DNA from: a virus
Reading direction: 5' to 3' (one strand)
Virus record (IMG/VR): IMGVR_UViG_3300010046_000001
Location: 1 to 44,641 of that record
Length of the DNA stretch: 44,641 nucleotides
Shown here: piece by piece, positions 3,814 through 6,239 of the stretch
How the letters are laid out: the number at the start of each line of letters is the position of its first letter
How positions within the stretch are numbered: position 1 is the first letter of the stretch
Program-made: the position numbers and the translations under genes
The notes under the pieces: model-generated
What the model was told of the DNA's origin: nothing
The model's database searches: none
The model's input: the letters and a program-made list of their open reading frames with translations, nothing else

Positions 3814-4076
3814 TGCTGACACTACTGCTCATATCCGCCGTCGCACTGGTATTTGTCTATCCGCTGCTAGCGACGCTATTCCGAGAGATTTTCCTCCCGG
3901 ACCCCACAAACAAGCGGCGCGAACCCACTACCTCATGGTCGTGGAAACCTCGAGACTTGCTCCGCCCGGAACAATGGACGAGCGACCCGGCTAGCGGACG
4001 CTGGAAACGGTCCCTCATTATCTCTGTCACCTTGCTAGCATTAGTGGCATTCTCGCTACTCTATCGGAGGTGGTAA
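3813..4076 (+). CDS. membrane protein (87 aa, two hydrophobic segments)
   Basis: GTG start in a TAGTG overlap with the previous stop. Confidence 0.55.
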   Translation: MLTLLLISAVALVFVYPLLATLFREIFLPDPTNKRREPTTSWSWKPRDLLRPEQWTSDPASGRWKRSLIISVTLLALVAFSLLYRRW

Positions 4077-4846
4077 TGCGCCCGTCATACGAGTATACTA
4101 CAGGCATGGAACGCCACTTTGCCGACGGCAGTCCGGTCGAAATCGGGTGCCGAGTCTTCCGCGTGTACCCACAAGACGGCACGCGGAAGGCAGGCAAGCG
4201 GCGCGGTCCTACGTTGCTCGTCCATGCCTTGCGCCACCATGAACCCATAGACGGAACCCGCGAACCGCATGCACTTGCCGTTGTGAAGAACGCGTACAGC
4301 GGACTCCCGGCAGGGACGGAATTCGTGTGGAACTTGAAACGAGCGTCCGGCTGGCAACCGGACTCGCCGCGCCGGAAGAAGCTACCTAAGTATTATCGCG
4401 ACCGGACCGTCTCGAGCATCCGACTGCCGCAAGAATTCCGCGACCGGCTCGCGCTCCGGGGGGAAGAAATCACGGTCGTGATCCGACGCGATATCGAGCG
4501 ACTGTATGACATGCTCGAGCGTGTCCGGGCGACGCTGGTCTTTCCCGCTGGCACACTCGCCGAGCTGGCGCGAGCATGGTCGATTGCCGCACCACCTCCA
4601 CCGCATAACAACCTTCCGCCGCAGTATTTCGTTCCCGTGCTCCTAGATGCCTGCAAGCGGCTTGCGAGTCCGGAAGCGTTTCTGCTTTCCGAGCTCGCCA
4701 AGGCGTGGAATCCGATTGAGGCCCTAGCCGTACAGGATGCCGTCGAACGGTGGGCACCGGAGACGACGGAGACCGACCGCCTCCGAGACGCCGGACTCCG
4801 CGAAGCGGCGCCCGAGCCGAAATCCAGAAAGGTAGCCTCCAAATGA
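4076..4846 (+). CDS. hypothetical protein (256 aa), translationally coupled to the recombinase
   Basis: TAATG overlap upstream (the track ORF starts at GTG 4070). ATGA overlap with the recombinase gene. Confidence 0.7.
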   Translation: MRPSYEYTTGMERHFADGSPVEIGCRVFRVYPQDGTRKAGKRRGPTLLVHALRHHEPIDGTREPHALAVVKNAYSGLPAGTEFVWNLKRASGWQPDSPRRKKLPKYYRDRTVSSIRLPQEFRDRLALRGEEITVVIRRDIERLYDMLERVRATLVFPAGTLAELARAWSIAAPPPPHNNLPPQYFVPVLLDACKRLASPEAFLLSELAKAWNPIEALAVQDAVERWAPETTETDRLRDAGLREAAPEPKSRKVASK

Positions 4847-5802
4847 GCCCCACATTCAATTGCGAAATGACTAGCCCGAGCCCCACATTCAATTCACGTC
4901 TCACTCAACCGATCGTCGTTGCCGAGAACGCGGCGGTTGCCTATCTCGCGGGACTGGCGCCGACATCGAGAAAAACGCAGGCGAAAGCGCTCCGTGCGAT
5001 TGCAGAAATCGTCTGGGGACCGGGGGCAGACCCTGCCACGGTGCCATGGCACACGGCGGGATACGCGCACGGACAGGCATTGCGGCAAATGCTCTCTGGA
5101 CACTACGCTCCCGCTACCACAAACAGACTGCTGGCTGCGTGGCGCGGCGTGCTCAAAGCGGCATGGAGGCTCGGAACGATGGACGACCAGGATTATCTCC
5201 GCGCGATTGACGTGAAGGACGTTCGGCTCACGGGCGAGCTCCGGGGCCGCGCGCTCTCCCCGGATGAGCGCAACGCGCTTTTCGAGCACTGCCTTGCGGA
5301 CTCCCGGAATCTCGGGCTGCGGGACGGCGCCATGCTGGCACTGCTCTACGCCTGCGGGCTGCGGCGGGCGGAGGCGTCTGCGCTCAATACAGCCGATTTA
5401 ACGCCCGATGGCATCCGGGTAAGGGGAAAGGGCGGGAAAGTCCGGCTCGTGCCTGTACCGCCACGCTACGCGCAATTTCTGCTATCCTACACGCAGGCAC
5501 TGACCGACCACGGGCCGCTTCTGCGCTCGATCGATAAGCGGACGGGGCACTTTACCAAGTGCCGGATCGGGACGGAGGGAATCGCCAAGGCGCTCCGGGC
5601 TCGGATCATGGCTGCCGGGATCGCGATCGCGACCCCACATGATCTTCGCCGGACGTACATCACGGACCTGCTCGACCATGGCGTGGACCCACTCACGGTG
5701 GCGGGACTGGCGGGACACGCGCAGATTGATACCACACGGCGCTACGACCGCCGCAGCCACGCGACCCGGGTCGCTGCTGTCGCCTCATTAGGAGACGAGT
5801 AG
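4843..5802 (+). CDS. tyrosine recombinase, XerC/XerD-like (319 aa)
   Basis: GLRRAE (Arg I), HDLRRTY (His-x-x-Arg), GHAQIDTTRRY (His...Tyr), and an N-terminal SAM-like core-binding region. The track ORF starts at 4750, but the ATGA-coupled ATG 4843 is preferred. Confidence 0.9.
   Translation: MSPTFNCEMTSPSPTFNSRLTQPIVVAENAAVAYLAGLAPTSRKTQAKALRAIAEIVWGPGADPATVPWHTAGYAHGQALRQMLSGHYAPATTNRLLAAWRGVLKAAWRLGTMDDQDYLRAIDVKDVRLTGELRGRALSPDERNALFEHCLADSRNLGLRDGAMLALLYACGLRRAEASALNTADLTPDGIRVRGKGGKVRLVPVPPRYAQFLLSYTQALTDHGPLLRSIDKRTGHFTKCRIGTEGIAKALRARIMAAGIAIATPHDLRRTYITDLLDHGVDPLTVAGLAGHAQIDTTRRYDRRSHATRVAAVASLGDE
4845..4894 (+). repeat. Two identical 17-bp direct repeats GAGCCCCACATTCAATT (4845-4861, 4878-4894)
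   Basis: Read directly. 33-bp periodicity at the very 5' end of the recombinase ORF (encodes SPTFN twice). Confidence 0.9.
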
Positions 5803-6108
5803 ATGCCGAAAAAGCCGCGCGGCGTGCCAGCAGAGCGCGATCTGCTGGCGGTCCGTATCCGCAAGCTCGAGGAAGAGCAGCATCAGACAAACATTCAGCT
5901 CTCTGCTCTCTACGGCCAGGGCATCGAGGTACAGACCAAGCTCGATGTGACGAACCTCCGCCTCGAAGGCATGGAGAAACTCCTGAAGGCAATTGTCCGG
6001 GGTATAAATACGATGCGGGATAACTTGCAAGTCTTCGCAACGCTTGCCTATGCCGTCAATGACCTACGGGACCGCGTTCATGCACTCGAACATCCAGACG
6101 AGGAATGA
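5803..6108 (+). CDS. coiled-coil hypothetical protein (101 aa)
   Basis: ORF track. Starts 1 nt after the recombinase stop. Confidence 0.6.
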   Translation: MPKKPRGVPAERDLLAVRIRKLEEEQHQTNIQLSALYGQGIEVQTKLDVTNLRLEGMEKLLKAIVRGINTMRDNLQVFATLAYAVNDLRDRVHALEHPDEE

Positions 6109-6239
6109 CACTATTACGCTGGATGGTGGGCACCGCGATTGCCCTGGTGCTGATGGTGCTCGCCGCACAGGGCGTGCTCTACATGAAGCTCGCCGACCTA
6201 GCCTTGCAGATCGGGACCGTTGTCGGACGGTTGCATTGA
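6105..6239 (+). CDS. small membrane protein (44 aa, MTLLRWMVGTAIALVLMVLAAQ...)
   Basis: ATGA overlap with the previous gene. Hand-translated, below the track cutoff. Confidence 0.4.
   Translation: MTLLRWMVGTAIALVLMVLAAQGVLYMKLADLALQIGTVVGRLH

What the first reader, a model, noticed from the sequence alone, without database searches (positions are those of the whole stretch)
4076..6239. A second tyrosine recombinase module at the end of the early operon, with two identical 17-bp repeats at its 5' end
Besides the classical int-xis-attP set, the phage encodes a XerD-like recombinase at 4843-5802. It has RRAE, HDLRRTY and GHAQIDTTRRY motifs. It is ATGA-coupled to an unknown 256-aa protein upstream and followed by a coiled-coil protein and a 44-aa membrane peptide. 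The first 50 nt of the recombinase ORF contain GAGCCCCACATTCAATT twice (4845-4861 and 4878-4894), 33 bp apart. That is about three helical turns. Perfect nucleotide identity of the two copies is not required by the coding content. This module may be a Cre/lox-like or Xer/dif-like dimer-resolution or plasmid-prophage maintenance system, or a recombinase with its own cis site. The role of the partner proteins is unknown.
Basis: partly seen in the sequence, partly recalled or inferred. Interest (0 to 1): 0.65.

Follow-up and report, generated by a model that had tools for sequence, protein, structure and literature searches.

The report
Phage Xer-like recombinase with orphan partner
A temperate phage that already has a complete, ordinary integration system also carries a Xer-type recombinase fused in expression to an unknown partner gene, and the 17-base repeat at the start of that gene is most likely a small in-frame duplication in a floppy protein tail, not the enzyme's target site.

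Summary
GAGCCCCACATTCAATT occurs exactly twice (4845-4861, 4878-4894) and nowhere else in the genome.

The repeat lies in the disordered N-terminal tail of the recombinase, a tail that varies in length across relatives. Only the closest relative (84% aa identity) shares it, and there copy 2 already differs at 2 of 17 bases. About ten relatives at 60-67% identity lack it. No inverted copy exists. I read it as an in-frame micro-duplication, not a lox/dif-type site.

The conserved module is two genes: an orphan 256-aa protein ATGA-coupled to a 319-aa arm-less tyrosine recombinase with all catalytic residues. The coiled-coil ORF and the 44-aa ORF sit in a variable slot and have no homologue in any relative.

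The phage has a separate lambda-type integrase. Its attP has a tRNA-Arg-like core and five arm-type repeats. The second enzyme is therefore probably not the integrase.

Its nearest relatives (40-48% identity) are bacterial single-Xer genes with a 13-6-13 dif-like site next to the gene start, as in XerS and XerH. The phage clade has no such site; the partner gene occupies that position. The recombinase's target and role remain unknown. My best guess is a captured Xer resolvase whose partner acts as its activator.

The parts
4076..4846 (+). Orphan partner gene (256 aa). Predicted N-terminal small beta-barrel (about residues 12-95), a basic disordered linker (99-115) and a C-terminal helical domain (119-238).
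   Evidence: No hit in Pfam, NCBIfam, PHROGs, PADLOC or PDB sequences. The word-indexed search found 14 homologues and the exhaustive profile search found 5 strong hits, all from the same phage clade. AF2 mean pLDDT is 77.9. Foldseek gave nothing below E=0.09 in PDB or 0.006 in BFVD. A homologue lies directly upstream of the recombinase in every clade locus except L057, where a 142-aa gene intervenes, and in none of about 150 more distant loci. Its start ATG 4076 overlaps the TAA of the preceding ORF.
4843..5802 (+). Xer-like arm-less tyrosine recombinase (319 aa) with a core-binding domain and a catalytic domain. Catalytic codons: R174 5362-5364, K196/K199 5428-5439, H266 5638-5640, R269 5647-5649, H292 5716-5718, Y301 5743-5745.
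   Evidence: PF00589 at 2e-19. NCBIfam XerC 107.6 bits, XerD 90.1 and XerA 84.5, all far below their cut-offs. Best PDB sequence hit is E. coli XerD at 8e-16. AF2 pLDDT is 91.6. Foldseek top hits are full-length matches to XerA, IntI4, Tn1549 Int(82-397), lambda Int(75-356), XerH and Cre. Catalytic columns are conserved in 65 homologues.
4843..4846 (+). ATGA start/stop overlap, implying translational coupling of partner and recombinase.
   Evidence: Sequence. Conserved in L009, L001, L002, L017 and L018. L005 and L008 have gaps of 3 and 7 nt. L057 has a 142-aa gene inserted, also ATGA-coupled to the partner.
4845..4861 (+). 17-mer copy 1. It overlaps the last base of the recombinase start codon and the last two bases (GA) of the partner stop codon, and encodes SPTFN (residues 2-6).
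   Evidence: Identical in L009, within a 24-of-24 identical stretch.
4878..4894 (+). 17-mer copy 2, encoding SPTFN (residues 13-17).
   Evidence: L009 has GAGCCCCACATaCAAaT, 15 of 17, encoding SPTYK.
4843..4917 (+). Coding region for the disordered N-terminal tail (residues 1-25). It is G-poor and unusually unstructured as RNA.
   Evidence: pLDDT is about 50 for residues 1-20. In relatives the segment before the conserved NAAVAYLAG varies from 13 to 28 aa and is P/S/T/A-rich. G fraction is 13.6% in 4845-4910, the 0.1 percentile of the genome. RNA of 4810-4920 folds worse than all 200 shuffles, z=+2.55.
5803..6239 (+). Variable slot holding a 101-aa ORF (5803-6108) and a 44-aa ORF (6105-6239). 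Not part of the conserved module.
   Evidence: No homologue in any related locus. Identity to L009 falls from about 80% to about 20% at the recombinase stop and resumes near 6260. Other relatives carry different small ORFs here.
12362..13555 (-). The phage's main, lambda-type integrase (397 aa). It is context for the finding and shows that the Xer-like enzyme is not needed for integration.
   Evidence: PF00589 at 2.9e-21 and phrog_1 at 1.5e-45 over residues 21-384. A 393-398-aa integrase sits at the same relative position in every long related contig.
12100..12400 (-). attP of the main integrase. The core is a partial tRNA-Arg(ACG)-like 3' half (12258-12300, minus strand). Five GTTCTCA arm-type repeats lie at 12142, 12154, 12177 (inverted), 12374 and 12386. 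An 11-7-11 palindrome lies at 12110-12138.
   Evidence: A near-identical tRNA-like core is present in L009 and L005. The 2+1 / 2 arm layout is conserved, but the arm sequence changes with the phage (GTTCTCA; GCGTCGCA/TCGTCGCA; TGCGGACA).

Best explanation
What is there. Positions 4076-5802 hold a two-gene module that is conserved in a small clade of temperate phages known only from metagenomes. It consists of an orphan 256-aa protein translationally coupled to a 319-aa, catalytically intact, arm-less tyrosine recombinase.

Origin of the recombinase. By sequence it belongs with bacterial single-recombinase Xer genes, which keep a 13-6-13 dif-like site directly upstream of their own start codon, the XerS/difSL and XerH/difH arrangement. 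In the phage lineage that cis site is gone and the coupled partner gene sits in its place. Integration is handled by a separate lambda-type Int with its own attP, which has a tRNA-Arg-like core and five arm sites.

Inferred mechanism (not shown). The enzyme is a captured Xer resolvase. It is made late in the early operon together with its partner. It acts on phage DNA, for multimer resolution or cyclisation, at a site not yet identified. The partner serves as an activating or specificity subunit and stands in for the FtsK-type control that Xer enzymes normally need.

The 17-mer repeat. It is an in-frame micro-duplication (11-codon register) inside the intrinsically disordered, rapidly evolving, G-poor N-terminal tail. 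It arose in the common ancestor of this phage and its closest relative. It is not the recombination site. At most it helps keep the coupled translation-initiation region free of RNA structure.
For: Shown: a conserved two-gene module.
- Partner homologues lie immediately upstream of the recombinase in every clade locus (one has a 142-aa gene between them) and in none of about 150 distant loci.
- The start/stop overlap or a gap of at most 7 nt is conserved.
- Downstream ORFs are not conserved.

Shown: Xer affinity.
- The best NCBIfam and PDB hits are XerC, XerD and XerA.
- The predicted fold is two domains with no arm-binding domain.
- Of 100 family loci outside the clade with at least 150 nt of upstream DNA, 57 have exactly one dif-like site. 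In 47 it lies within 400 nt upstream of the gene, mostly next to the start.
- The left arm AGTTATGAAAA equals the published difH arm, and xerS is likewise adjacent to difSL (PMC5357621).
- Family members sit in housekeeping neighbourhoods.

Shown: the phage clade lacks that site.
- No PWM hit of 15 bits or more in 23 clade loci, including the whole window. Positive controls score 40-50 bits.

Shown: a separate canonical integration system.

Shown: the repeat is lineage-specific and decaying.
- Identical plus 15-of-17 copies in L009.
- Absent from L001, L002, L005, L008, L017, L018 and L057, which have no local repeat of their own.
- No third or inverted copy at 3 mismatches or fewer, and hits at 4-6 mismatches occur at chance level.
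- Residues 1-25 are disordered.
- In the first 29 codons, window and L009 differ at 14 codons, 12 of them non-synonymous (read).
- The RNA is less structured than all 200 shuffles.
Against: - No target site for the recombinase was found anywhere, so the resolvase or cyclisation role is inference by family resemblance only.
- No sign of a plasmid-like lifestyle was seen among the roughly 30 ORFs scanned, and an integrated prophage does not need dimer resolution.
- The partner has no detectable similarity to FtsK-gamma, XafT or any DNA-binding fold, so its role is a guess.
- The 17-mers are somewhat better conserved than the rest of the tail. There are 2 substitutions in 34 nt between the two phages against about 23% divergence in the remaining tail, which is roughly p=0.02 by my own post hoc estimate.
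- The pair is one of only two local exact repeats in ordinary (non-repetitive) sequence in the genome. The other looks like an origin iteron.
- The 33-nt spacing would put two bound proteins on the same face of the helix. A DNA-level function in this sub-lineage is therefore not excluded.
Confidence: 0.5

Rival explanations
1. The two 17-mers are functional DNA sites, either operators or accessory sites. The partner protein or the recombinase binds them on one face of the helix, three turns apart, to autoregulate the recombinase or to help assemble a synapse. This would resemble the direct-repeat DR1/DR2 sites of TnpI, or iterons.
For: Exact identity including rare codons ACA and AAT. One of only two local exact repeats in ordinary sequence in the genome. 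Fewer substitutions against L009 than in the rest of the tail. Bacterial relatives keep their cis site at the same place, the gene's 5' edge.
Against: Present in only 2 of about 12 clade members, although recombinase and partner are conserved in all. Copy 2 has two changes in L009. There is no inverted core pair nearby or anywhere else. Copy 1's conservation is explained by its overlap with the start codon, the stop codon and the ribosome-loading region.
Confidence: 0.15
2. The Xer-like enzyme is a second integrase, either arm-less like Brujita's or SSV1-type. Its attP would lie inside or at its own 5' end, so that integration separates the gene from its operon and the 17-mer is the common core.
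For: Arm-less integrases exist, and SSV1-type integrases do carry attP inside their own ORF (my own knowledge, not tested here). The repeat sits in the first 50 nt of the ORF.
Against: The phage already has a complete Int/attP set. A common core would be present once, not twice. The 17-mer is not tRNA-like, has no dyad, is not conserved in the clade, and no contig breaks at it (L007 starts elsewhere in the gene). In the one integrated element seen with a family member (L012), the element's edge lies next to the other integrase and a tRNA-Val gene, not next to the Xer-like gene. No close prophage relative was found among 185,579 species genomes.
Confidence: 0.06
3. The repeat matters at the peptide level. 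SPTFN would be a short linear motif, present twice in the disordered tail, that docks the recombinase to its partner or to a host factor or protease.
For: The repeat lies in a disordered tail, which is typical for short linear motifs. Three of the four copies in the two phages keep SPTFN.
Against: The motif is absent from all other clade members, although the partner is conserved in them. L009's copy 2 is SPTYK. Codon-level identity (P about 0.016) points to recent common descent rather than to selection on the peptide.
Confidence: 0.1
4. The recombinase is an invertase or shufflon-type switch (like Rci or Fim), or a cassette-capture enzyme responsible for the variable slot just downstream of its gene.
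For: The DNA directly after the stop codon is hypervariable among relatives. The genes beyond it include a virion structural protein.
Against: No inverted repeats flank the slot or any nearby segment above chance. The slot is exactly the space between two convergent operons, a usual place for moron turnover. Independent contigs of the same phage are collinear. The score for the tyrosine-type DNA invertase family is negligible, 13 bits.
Confidence: 0.05

Closest known systems
XerS/difSL (Lactococcus, Streptococcus) and XerH/difH (Helicobacter, Campylobacter) single-recombinase Xer modules
   Same: A two-domain arm-less tyrosine recombinase of about 300-350 aa with all catalytic residues. The window enzyme's relatives at 40-48% identity carry one palindromic dif-like site next to the gene start, as xerS does. 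The left arm AGTTATGAAAA is identical to the difH arm quoted in PMC5357621.
   Different: The phage enzyme has no dif-like site beside the gene or anywhere in its 44.5-kb genome. It is phage-borne. It is ATGA-coupled to an orphan 256-aa protein. It scores far below the NCBIfam cut-offs: XerS 41.8 bits against 267, XerC 107.6 against 335.
Cre/loxP of phage P1
   Same: A phage-encoded arm-less tyrosine recombinase that is not the integrase. The folds match over the full length (Foldseek E about 1e-8, TM about 0.64).
   Different: P1 has no integrase and keeps loxP (13-8-13) next to cre (my own knowledge). Here there is a full Int/attP set, no lox-like dyad near the gene, sequence identity of about 13-15%, and a coupled partner that Cre does not have.
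XafT of the satellite phage TLC-phi (a Xer activation factor)
   Same: It is a precedent for a phage-encoded protein that switches on a Xer recombinase without FtsK (abstract of bioRxiv 10.1101/2021.09.09.459576). This is the role I propose for the 256-aa partner.
   Different: XafT acts on the host's XerD, and TLC-phi encodes no recombinase. No sequence or fold similarity of the partner to anything annotated was found. The analogy is functional only and untested.
TnpI/IRS of Tn4430 (arm-less tyrosine recombinase with accessory direct repeats)
   Same: Direct repeats of a motif of about 16 bp close to the recombinase gene (my own knowledge of the system).
   Different: The IRS needs an inverted core pair plus the direct repeats, all upstream of the gene. 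Here there are only two direct copies, they lie inside the ORF, and there is no inverted pair.

Membership tests
Tyrosine recombinase superfamily (PF00589) | Catalytic R-K-H-R-H/W-Y set in a C-terminal catalytic domain | tested here: met
   R174, K196/K199, H266, R269, H292 and Y301 are present and conserved in 65 homologues. PF00589 at 2e-19. Confident two-domain model.
Chromosomal XerC/XerD | Score above the curated equivalog cut-off | tested here: not met
   XerC 107.6 bits against a cut-off of 335; XerD 90.1 against 330.
Single-recombinase Xer/dif module (XerS or XerH type) | A palindromic dif-like site (11-13 bp arms, central region of about 6-11 bp) genetically linked to the recombinase gene | tested here: not met
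   Bacterial relatives have it (57 of 100 loci, 47 of them next to the gene). No clade locus and no position in the window reaches 15 bits. Scans with spacers of 3-12 bp found nothing above the shuffles. No dyad of 9/11 or better is conserved at the junction.
Single-recombinase Xer/dif module (XerS or XerH type) | Activation by FtsK at the division septum and a site at the replication terminus | not testable with these tools
   This needs genetics or biochemistry. The gene is on a phage genome.
Lambda-type phage integrase | N-terminal arm-binding domain, and an attP with arm-type sites flanking a core | tested here: not met
   319 aa. The model has only core-binding and catalytic domains after a disordered 25-aa tail. 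The arm-site attP at 12100-12400 belongs to the 397-aa Int, and its arm sequence co-varies with the phage's Int/attP region rather than resembling a Xer half-site across the clade.
Cre/lox-like phage resolvase | A 13-8-13-type inverted-repeat site on the phage genome, normally beside the gene | tested here: inconclusive
   None within -250 to +150 of the start. Genome-wide there are five 11-bp-arm palindromes with 1 mismatch or fewer (11148, 12110, 17917, 23972, 38359). None is near the module and none is linked to it by any evidence.
Integron integrase | IntI-specific model score (extra domain) and an adjacent attI with a cassette array | tested here: not met
   53.9 bits against a cut-off of 265. 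No repeated attC-like elements in the variable slot.
SSV1-type integrase (attP inside its own ORF) | A single core inside the int ORF that is identical to a host sequence, usually a tRNA, so that the gene is split in the prophage | tested here: inconclusive
   The 17-mer is present twice, is not tRNA-like, and no split copy was seen.
TnpI/IRS-like site with accessory direct repeats | An inverted core pair plus direct repeats of the same motif | tested here: not met
   Only two direct copies. The best inverted match is 13/17, which is at chance frequency and is not conserved in L009.

The most novel reading that the evidence does not exclude
A phage lineage captured a bacterial single-Xer recombinase, discarded its dif site and coupled it to a new protein. 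That protein would act as a private, FtsK-independent activator or specificity subunit and retarget the enzyme to a non-dif site on phage or host DNA. In the window's sub-lineage the two 17-mers, three helical turns apart, would be loading sites for the partner. This would be a new two-component form of Xer recombination, with the phage supplying both the recombinase and its own licence to act.
Probability: 0.12. Interest if true: 0.65.

Novelty: new variant of a known kind. Interest (0 to 1): 0.35.

Why it matters
Xer recombinases are usually host enzymes that mobile elements borrow, and their activity is gated by FtsK. A phage clade that carries its own Xer-type enzyme, has lost the linked dif site, and expresses the enzyme in lockstep with a conserved orphan protein would be a natural experiment in how a tyrosine recombinase gets re-targeted and re-licensed. 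If the partner proves to be an activator or specificity factor, it would add a second example beside XafT and could be useful as a recombinase tool.

The side observation matters independently. It indicates a widespread gene-linked Xer/dif module in Chloroflexota, Armatimonadota and Acidobacteria assemblies, with the difH-type arm AGTTATGAAAA. This gives a simple way to predict dif sites in those phyla.

The 17-mer repeat itself, the headline of the original finding, is probably of little consequence.

Tried and rejected
1. Known phage. Megablast of 20 kb and tblastn of the recombinase against 50,697 phage records gave no match.

2. Identifying the partner. These approaches all gave nothing usable:
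- Pfam, NCBIfam, PHROGs, PADLOC and PDB sequences.
- An exhaustive profile search of 1.8 billion proteins. It found only the clade itself plus weak hits to unannotated proteins of 70-170 aa that match one domain each.
- An AF2 model searched with Foldseek against PDB and BFVD. It gave only generic SH3/Tudor-like barrel matches with E>0.006.

3. The 17-mer elsewhere. IMG/VR holds it only in the sister phage, plus one unrelated coding hit that is probably chance.

4. RNA explanations. There are no Rfam hits in the window. The start region has no stable fold and is in fact anti-structured.

5. Promoters and terminators around the module. Counts are at chance level.

6. Conserved DNA sites across the clade. 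The only 13-mers shared with three or more distant relatives are an intergenic ribosome-binding-type motif and one inside int. Perfect blocks shared with the sister phage are mostly coding.

7. The idea that the GTTCTCA repeats at attP are Xer half-sites, because they resemble TTCTCAAAAG. Rejected because the arm sequence differs in L002/L176 and in L005.

8. Conserved neighbours of the wider family. None was found apart from the dif-like site.

9. Tandem-duplication test. The 16 nt that follow each 17-mer match at only 6 of 16 positions, so this is not a simple recent 33-bp tandem duplication. The event is either older or partial (my reading).

10. Host identification through the tRNA-Arg attP core. 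The only other hit is a clade phage.

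
Full report
OBSERVATION

The 17-mer GAGCCCCACATTCAATT is exact at 4845-4861 and 4878-4894, 33 nt apart. Allowing 3 mismatches on both strands, these are the only matches in the window, and none of 100 shuffles gave two. Genome-wide there are nine exact local repeats of at least 14 nt within 100 nt. 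Six are low-complexity or simple-sequence repeats and one is a 20-mer inside the repetitive block at 23.9-24.2 kb. The two in ordinary sequence are an iteron-like pair inside the replication-initiator gene and this pair. Markov-1 simulated genomes give 0.02 per genome.

The spacing is 11 codons and both copies encode SPTFN. Given that peptide, the chance of five identical codons under this genome's codon usage is about 0.016, and two of the codons (ACA, AAT) are minority codons. The copies therefore share descent as DNA.

The recombinase ORF (4843-5802, 319 aa) carries the quoted motifs and the full catalytic set. Its start overlaps the stop of a 256-aa ORF as ATGA. The gene caller behind the database entry P0001 started at ATG 4867. 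That codon is ATC in the closest relative, whereas ATG 4843 with its ATGA overlap is conserved. The 319-aa form is therefore correct and both repeat copies are translated.

THE GENOME

The first and last 123 nt of the window are identical (family D4), so the contig is a complete circular or circularly permuted genome of 44,518 bp. It has no close relative among 50,697 deposited phages.

It encodes a 397-aa integrase at 12362-13555 on the minus strand. Directly 3' of that gene, the minus strand reads CTACGAATCAGAAGGTCGGCTGTTCGAATCAGCCTGGGCGCAC. This is the anticodon loop (ACG) through the acceptor end of a tRNA-Arg-like gene. Five GTTCTCA repeats flank it, two direct plus one inverted on one side and two direct on the other. 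L009 has the same layout and a near-identical core. L005 has the same core but a different arm sequence, and L002 and L176 have a third arm sequence. This is a classical lambda-type attP, so integration is accounted for without the second recombinase.

Other functions found by PHROGs are a RuvC-like resolvase, a replication initiator and RecE-like exonucleases. No partition genes were seen among the roughly 30 ORFs scanned.

THE MODULE AND ITS RELATIVES

The recombinase has about a dozen relatives at 59-84% identity, several on contigs of 43-46 kb. All long contigs share the same order: an early plus-strand operon, the partner, the recombinase, a short variable slot, a convergent minus-strand block, and then a 393-398-aa integrase about 6.5-7 kb away.

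A profile of the 256-aa protein finds a homologue upstream of the recombinase in every clade locus and in none of about 150 more distant loci. The junction is ATGA in six of nine. In a seventh (L057) a 142-aa gene is inserted and is itself ATGA-coupled to the partner. The remaining two have gaps of 3 and 7 nt.

By contrast, the 101-aa and 44-aa ORFs after the recombinase have no homologue in any relative. Identity to the sister phage drops from about 80% to about 20% at the recombinase stop and returns at about 6260, where the convergent gene ends. Other relatives carry different small ORFs there. The conserved unit is therefore two genes, not four.

THE PARTNER

The partner has no hit in Pfam, NCBIfam, PHROGs, PADLOC or PDB sequences. 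An exhaustive profile search of 1.8 billion representative proteins gave five strong hits, all from the clade. Weak hits went to unannotated proteins of 70-170 aa that match only the N-terminal or only the C-terminal half.

The AF2 model has a mean pLDDT of 78. It shows a small beta-barrel, a basic disordered linker and a helical domain. Foldseek found nothing significant in PDB or BFVD. The partner's role cannot be read from sequence or fold.

THE RECOMBINASE FAMILY

The best curated matches are XerC, XerD and XerA, all well below their cut-offs. The best solved relative by sequence is E. coli XerD. The model is confident (pLDDT 91.6) except for residues 1-25. It superposes over its full length on XerA, IntI4, XerH, Cre and the arm-less parts of lambda and Tn1549 integrases. 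It therefore has a core-binding and a catalytic domain and no arm-binding domain.

Beyond the phage clade there are about a thousand relatives at 40-48% identity, many in Chloroflexota, Armatimonadota and Acidobacteria assemblies. Three that I looked up on long contigs sit alone among housekeeping genes.

Searching the upstream flanks of these genes for enriched words revealed a palindromic site: CTAGTTATGAAAA-N6-TTTTCAAAACTAG, or TTACTTATGAGAA-N6-TTCTCAAAAGTAA. Of 100 such loci with at least 150 nt of upstream sequence, 57 contain exactly one such site. In 47 it lies within 400 nt upstream of the gene, usually touching the start. The position weight matrix was built from a subset of these same sites, so the scores are partly circular. 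The one-per-locus, gene-adjacent placement does not depend on that.

A review gives the left arm of Helicobacter difH as AGTTATGAAAA, and states that xerS lies immediately adjacent to difSL as a single module (PMC5357621). The wider family thus looks like gene-linked single-Xer/dif modules. One member sits in an island of an Anaerolineae assembly whose edge is marked by another integrase next to tRNA-Val. There too the Xer-like gene has its dif-like site directly upstream.

THE PHAGE CLADE LACKS THAT SITE

No position in the window or in any of 22 other clade loci reaches 15 bits, while positive controls score 40-50. Allowing spacers of 3-12 bp does not help, and the best pairs fall below the shuffled genomes. 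No dyad better than 9/11 is found around the junction, and none is positionally conserved. In this lineage the place where relatives keep their cis site is occupied by the coupled partner gene.

IS THE 17-MER PAIR THE REPLACEMENT SITE?

The evidence is mostly against it.

- The sister phage L009 (recombinase 84% identical, partner 75-76%) has copy 1 unchanged and copy 2 as GAGCCCCACATaCAAaT at the same spacing. The duplication therefore predates their split, and copy 2 is drifting (F to Y, N to K).
- All relatives at 59-67% identity have shorter, unrelated P/S/T/A-rich tails, 13-28 residues before the conserved NAAVAYLAG. They have no 17-mer and no local repeat of their own.
- There is no inverted copy. 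Matches at 4-6 mismatches occur at chance frequency, and the one at 6500 is not conserved.
- The repeat codes for a disordered tail. Between the two phages that tail differs at 14 of its first 29 codons, and 12 of those differences are non-synonymous (my count).
- The stretch is extremely G-poor (0.1 percentile), and its RNA folds worse than every one of 200 shuffles. That fits a start region kept open for coupled translation.

Some evidence points the other way. The two copies carry 2 substitutions in 34 nt between the phages, against about 23% elsewhere in the tail, roughly p=0.02 by my own post hoc estimate. The pair is also an unusual kind of repeat for this genome. Copy 1's constancy is expected, because it overlaps the start codon, the partner's stop codon and the ribosome-loading region. 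I put the chance of a DNA-level function at about 0.15 and of a peptide-level function at about 0.1.

MECHANISM

Shown:
- A conserved, co-translated pair made of an orphan protein and an intact Xer-type recombinase.
- A separate and complete Int/attP system.
- Loss of the family's linked dif-like site.

Inferred: the enzyme still performs Xer-like resolution or cyclisation on phage DNA at an unidentified site. The partner supplies activation or targeting, as XafT does for XerD in TLC-phi (bioRxiv 10.1101/2021.09.09.459576). This is the likeliest reading only because of family resemblance and gene coupling. No site, no interaction and no phenotype has been shown. I considered second-integrase, invertase and cassette-capture readings and rate them lower, for the reasons given under the rival explanations.

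VERDICT

Novelty: a new variant of a known kind, namely a phage-borne Xer-type recombinase that has exchanged its linked dif site for a coupled orphan partner.

Interest is moderate to low (0.35). It would rise if the partner proves to be an activator or specificity factor.

Noticed in passing
L012 7956-7987; L102 2038-2069; L037 5853-5884; about 57 of the loci L012-L219: Bacterial relatives of the recombinase carry exactly one 13-6-13 dif-like palindrome per locus (CTAGTTATGAAAA-N6-TTTTCAAAACTAG, or TTACTTATGAGAA-N6-TTCTCAAAAGTAA), usually next to the gene start. They come from Chloroflexota, Armatimonadota and Acidobacteria assemblies and also two Pseudoalteromonas genomes. The left arm equals the published Helicobacter difH arm. 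This looks like a widespread gene-linked single-Xer/dif module. I did not check whether it has been described for these phyla.
   Followed up: partly
window 12100-12400 (also L009 18220-18510 and L005 15890-16215): attP of the main integrase. It has a partial tRNA-Arg(ACG)-like core at 12258-12300 on the minus strand, which ARAGORN misses. Five arm-type repeats lie in a conserved 2+1 / 2 layout, and their sequence differs between phages (GTTCTCA; GCGTCGCA/TCGTCGCA; TGCGGACA). An 11-7-11 palindrome at 12110-12138 is conserved in L009.
   Followed up: partly
window 11136-11177: Iteron-like repeats inside the replication-initiator gene (10734-11711, minus strand): the 16-mer TGGCGGACAATGTCCG twice, 21 nt apart, overlapping the palindrome GACAATGTCCG-N8-CGGACAATGTC. 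This is probably the origin of replication.
   Followed up: no
window 752-764, 1629-1642, 3285-3299 (+) and 43612-43625 (inverted): The intergenic motif (A)ACCCGAGAGAGAGA(AAGGA) lies just 5' of early-gene start codons. These are the only non-coding 13-mers shared exactly with three or more distant clade members. A 35-nt block at 3284-3318 is identical in the sister phage. It may be a translation enhancer, a processing site or an operator.
   Followed up: no
window 1-123 and 44519-44641: A 123-nt exact terminal overlap means the contig closes into a 44,518-bp circle, or carries a short terminal repeat.
   Followed up: no
window 43480-44518 continuing into 1-118: A non-coding region of about 1.1 kb spans the contig junction, and equivalents of 0.9-1.5 kb occur in all long relatives. 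It holds repeated GAGCATATGCC(C)TAG elements (44107, 44137), the palindrome TGCAGGCATACGC-G-GCGCGTGCCTGCA (44359-44385) and a 39-nt block (44050-44088) identical in the sister phage. It is probably the regulatory or immunity region. No Rfam family matches.
   Followed up: partly
window 1394-1413 and 2339-2358: An exact 20-mer, CGGAGGCGGAAGAGCTCGCC, occurs in two different early genes (peptide motif (S/A)EAEELA), with weaker copies at 2676 and 2775. Exact coding repeats are therefore not unique to the recombinase tail in this genome.
   Followed up: no
window 5803-6250, with L009 11419-11600, L001 6148-6561, L005 11009-11626: There is a hypervariable slot between the recombinase stop and the convergent operon. 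Each phage has different small ORFs there. Some are shared patchily, for example a small hydrophobic peptide ending in ...GEAAIF.EM.R.L.E, and a Cys-rich DDGH.PCWH...HPIA.NHGQ protein.
   Followed up: partly
L057 798-1226 (same arrangement on the contig of P0003): In one sub-lineage a 142-aa gene is inserted between the partner and the recombinase, and its start is ATGA-coupled to the partner. The pair therefore tolerates an intervening cistron.
   Followed up: no
window 1-3600: The early operon encodes many small, very acidic proteins, for example 1201-1626 ending in DDDEEEEED and 3311-3583 with a D9 run (phrog_871). Relatives carry DUF932 in this operon. This is reminiscent of anti-restriction or leading-region gene sets.
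   Followed up: no
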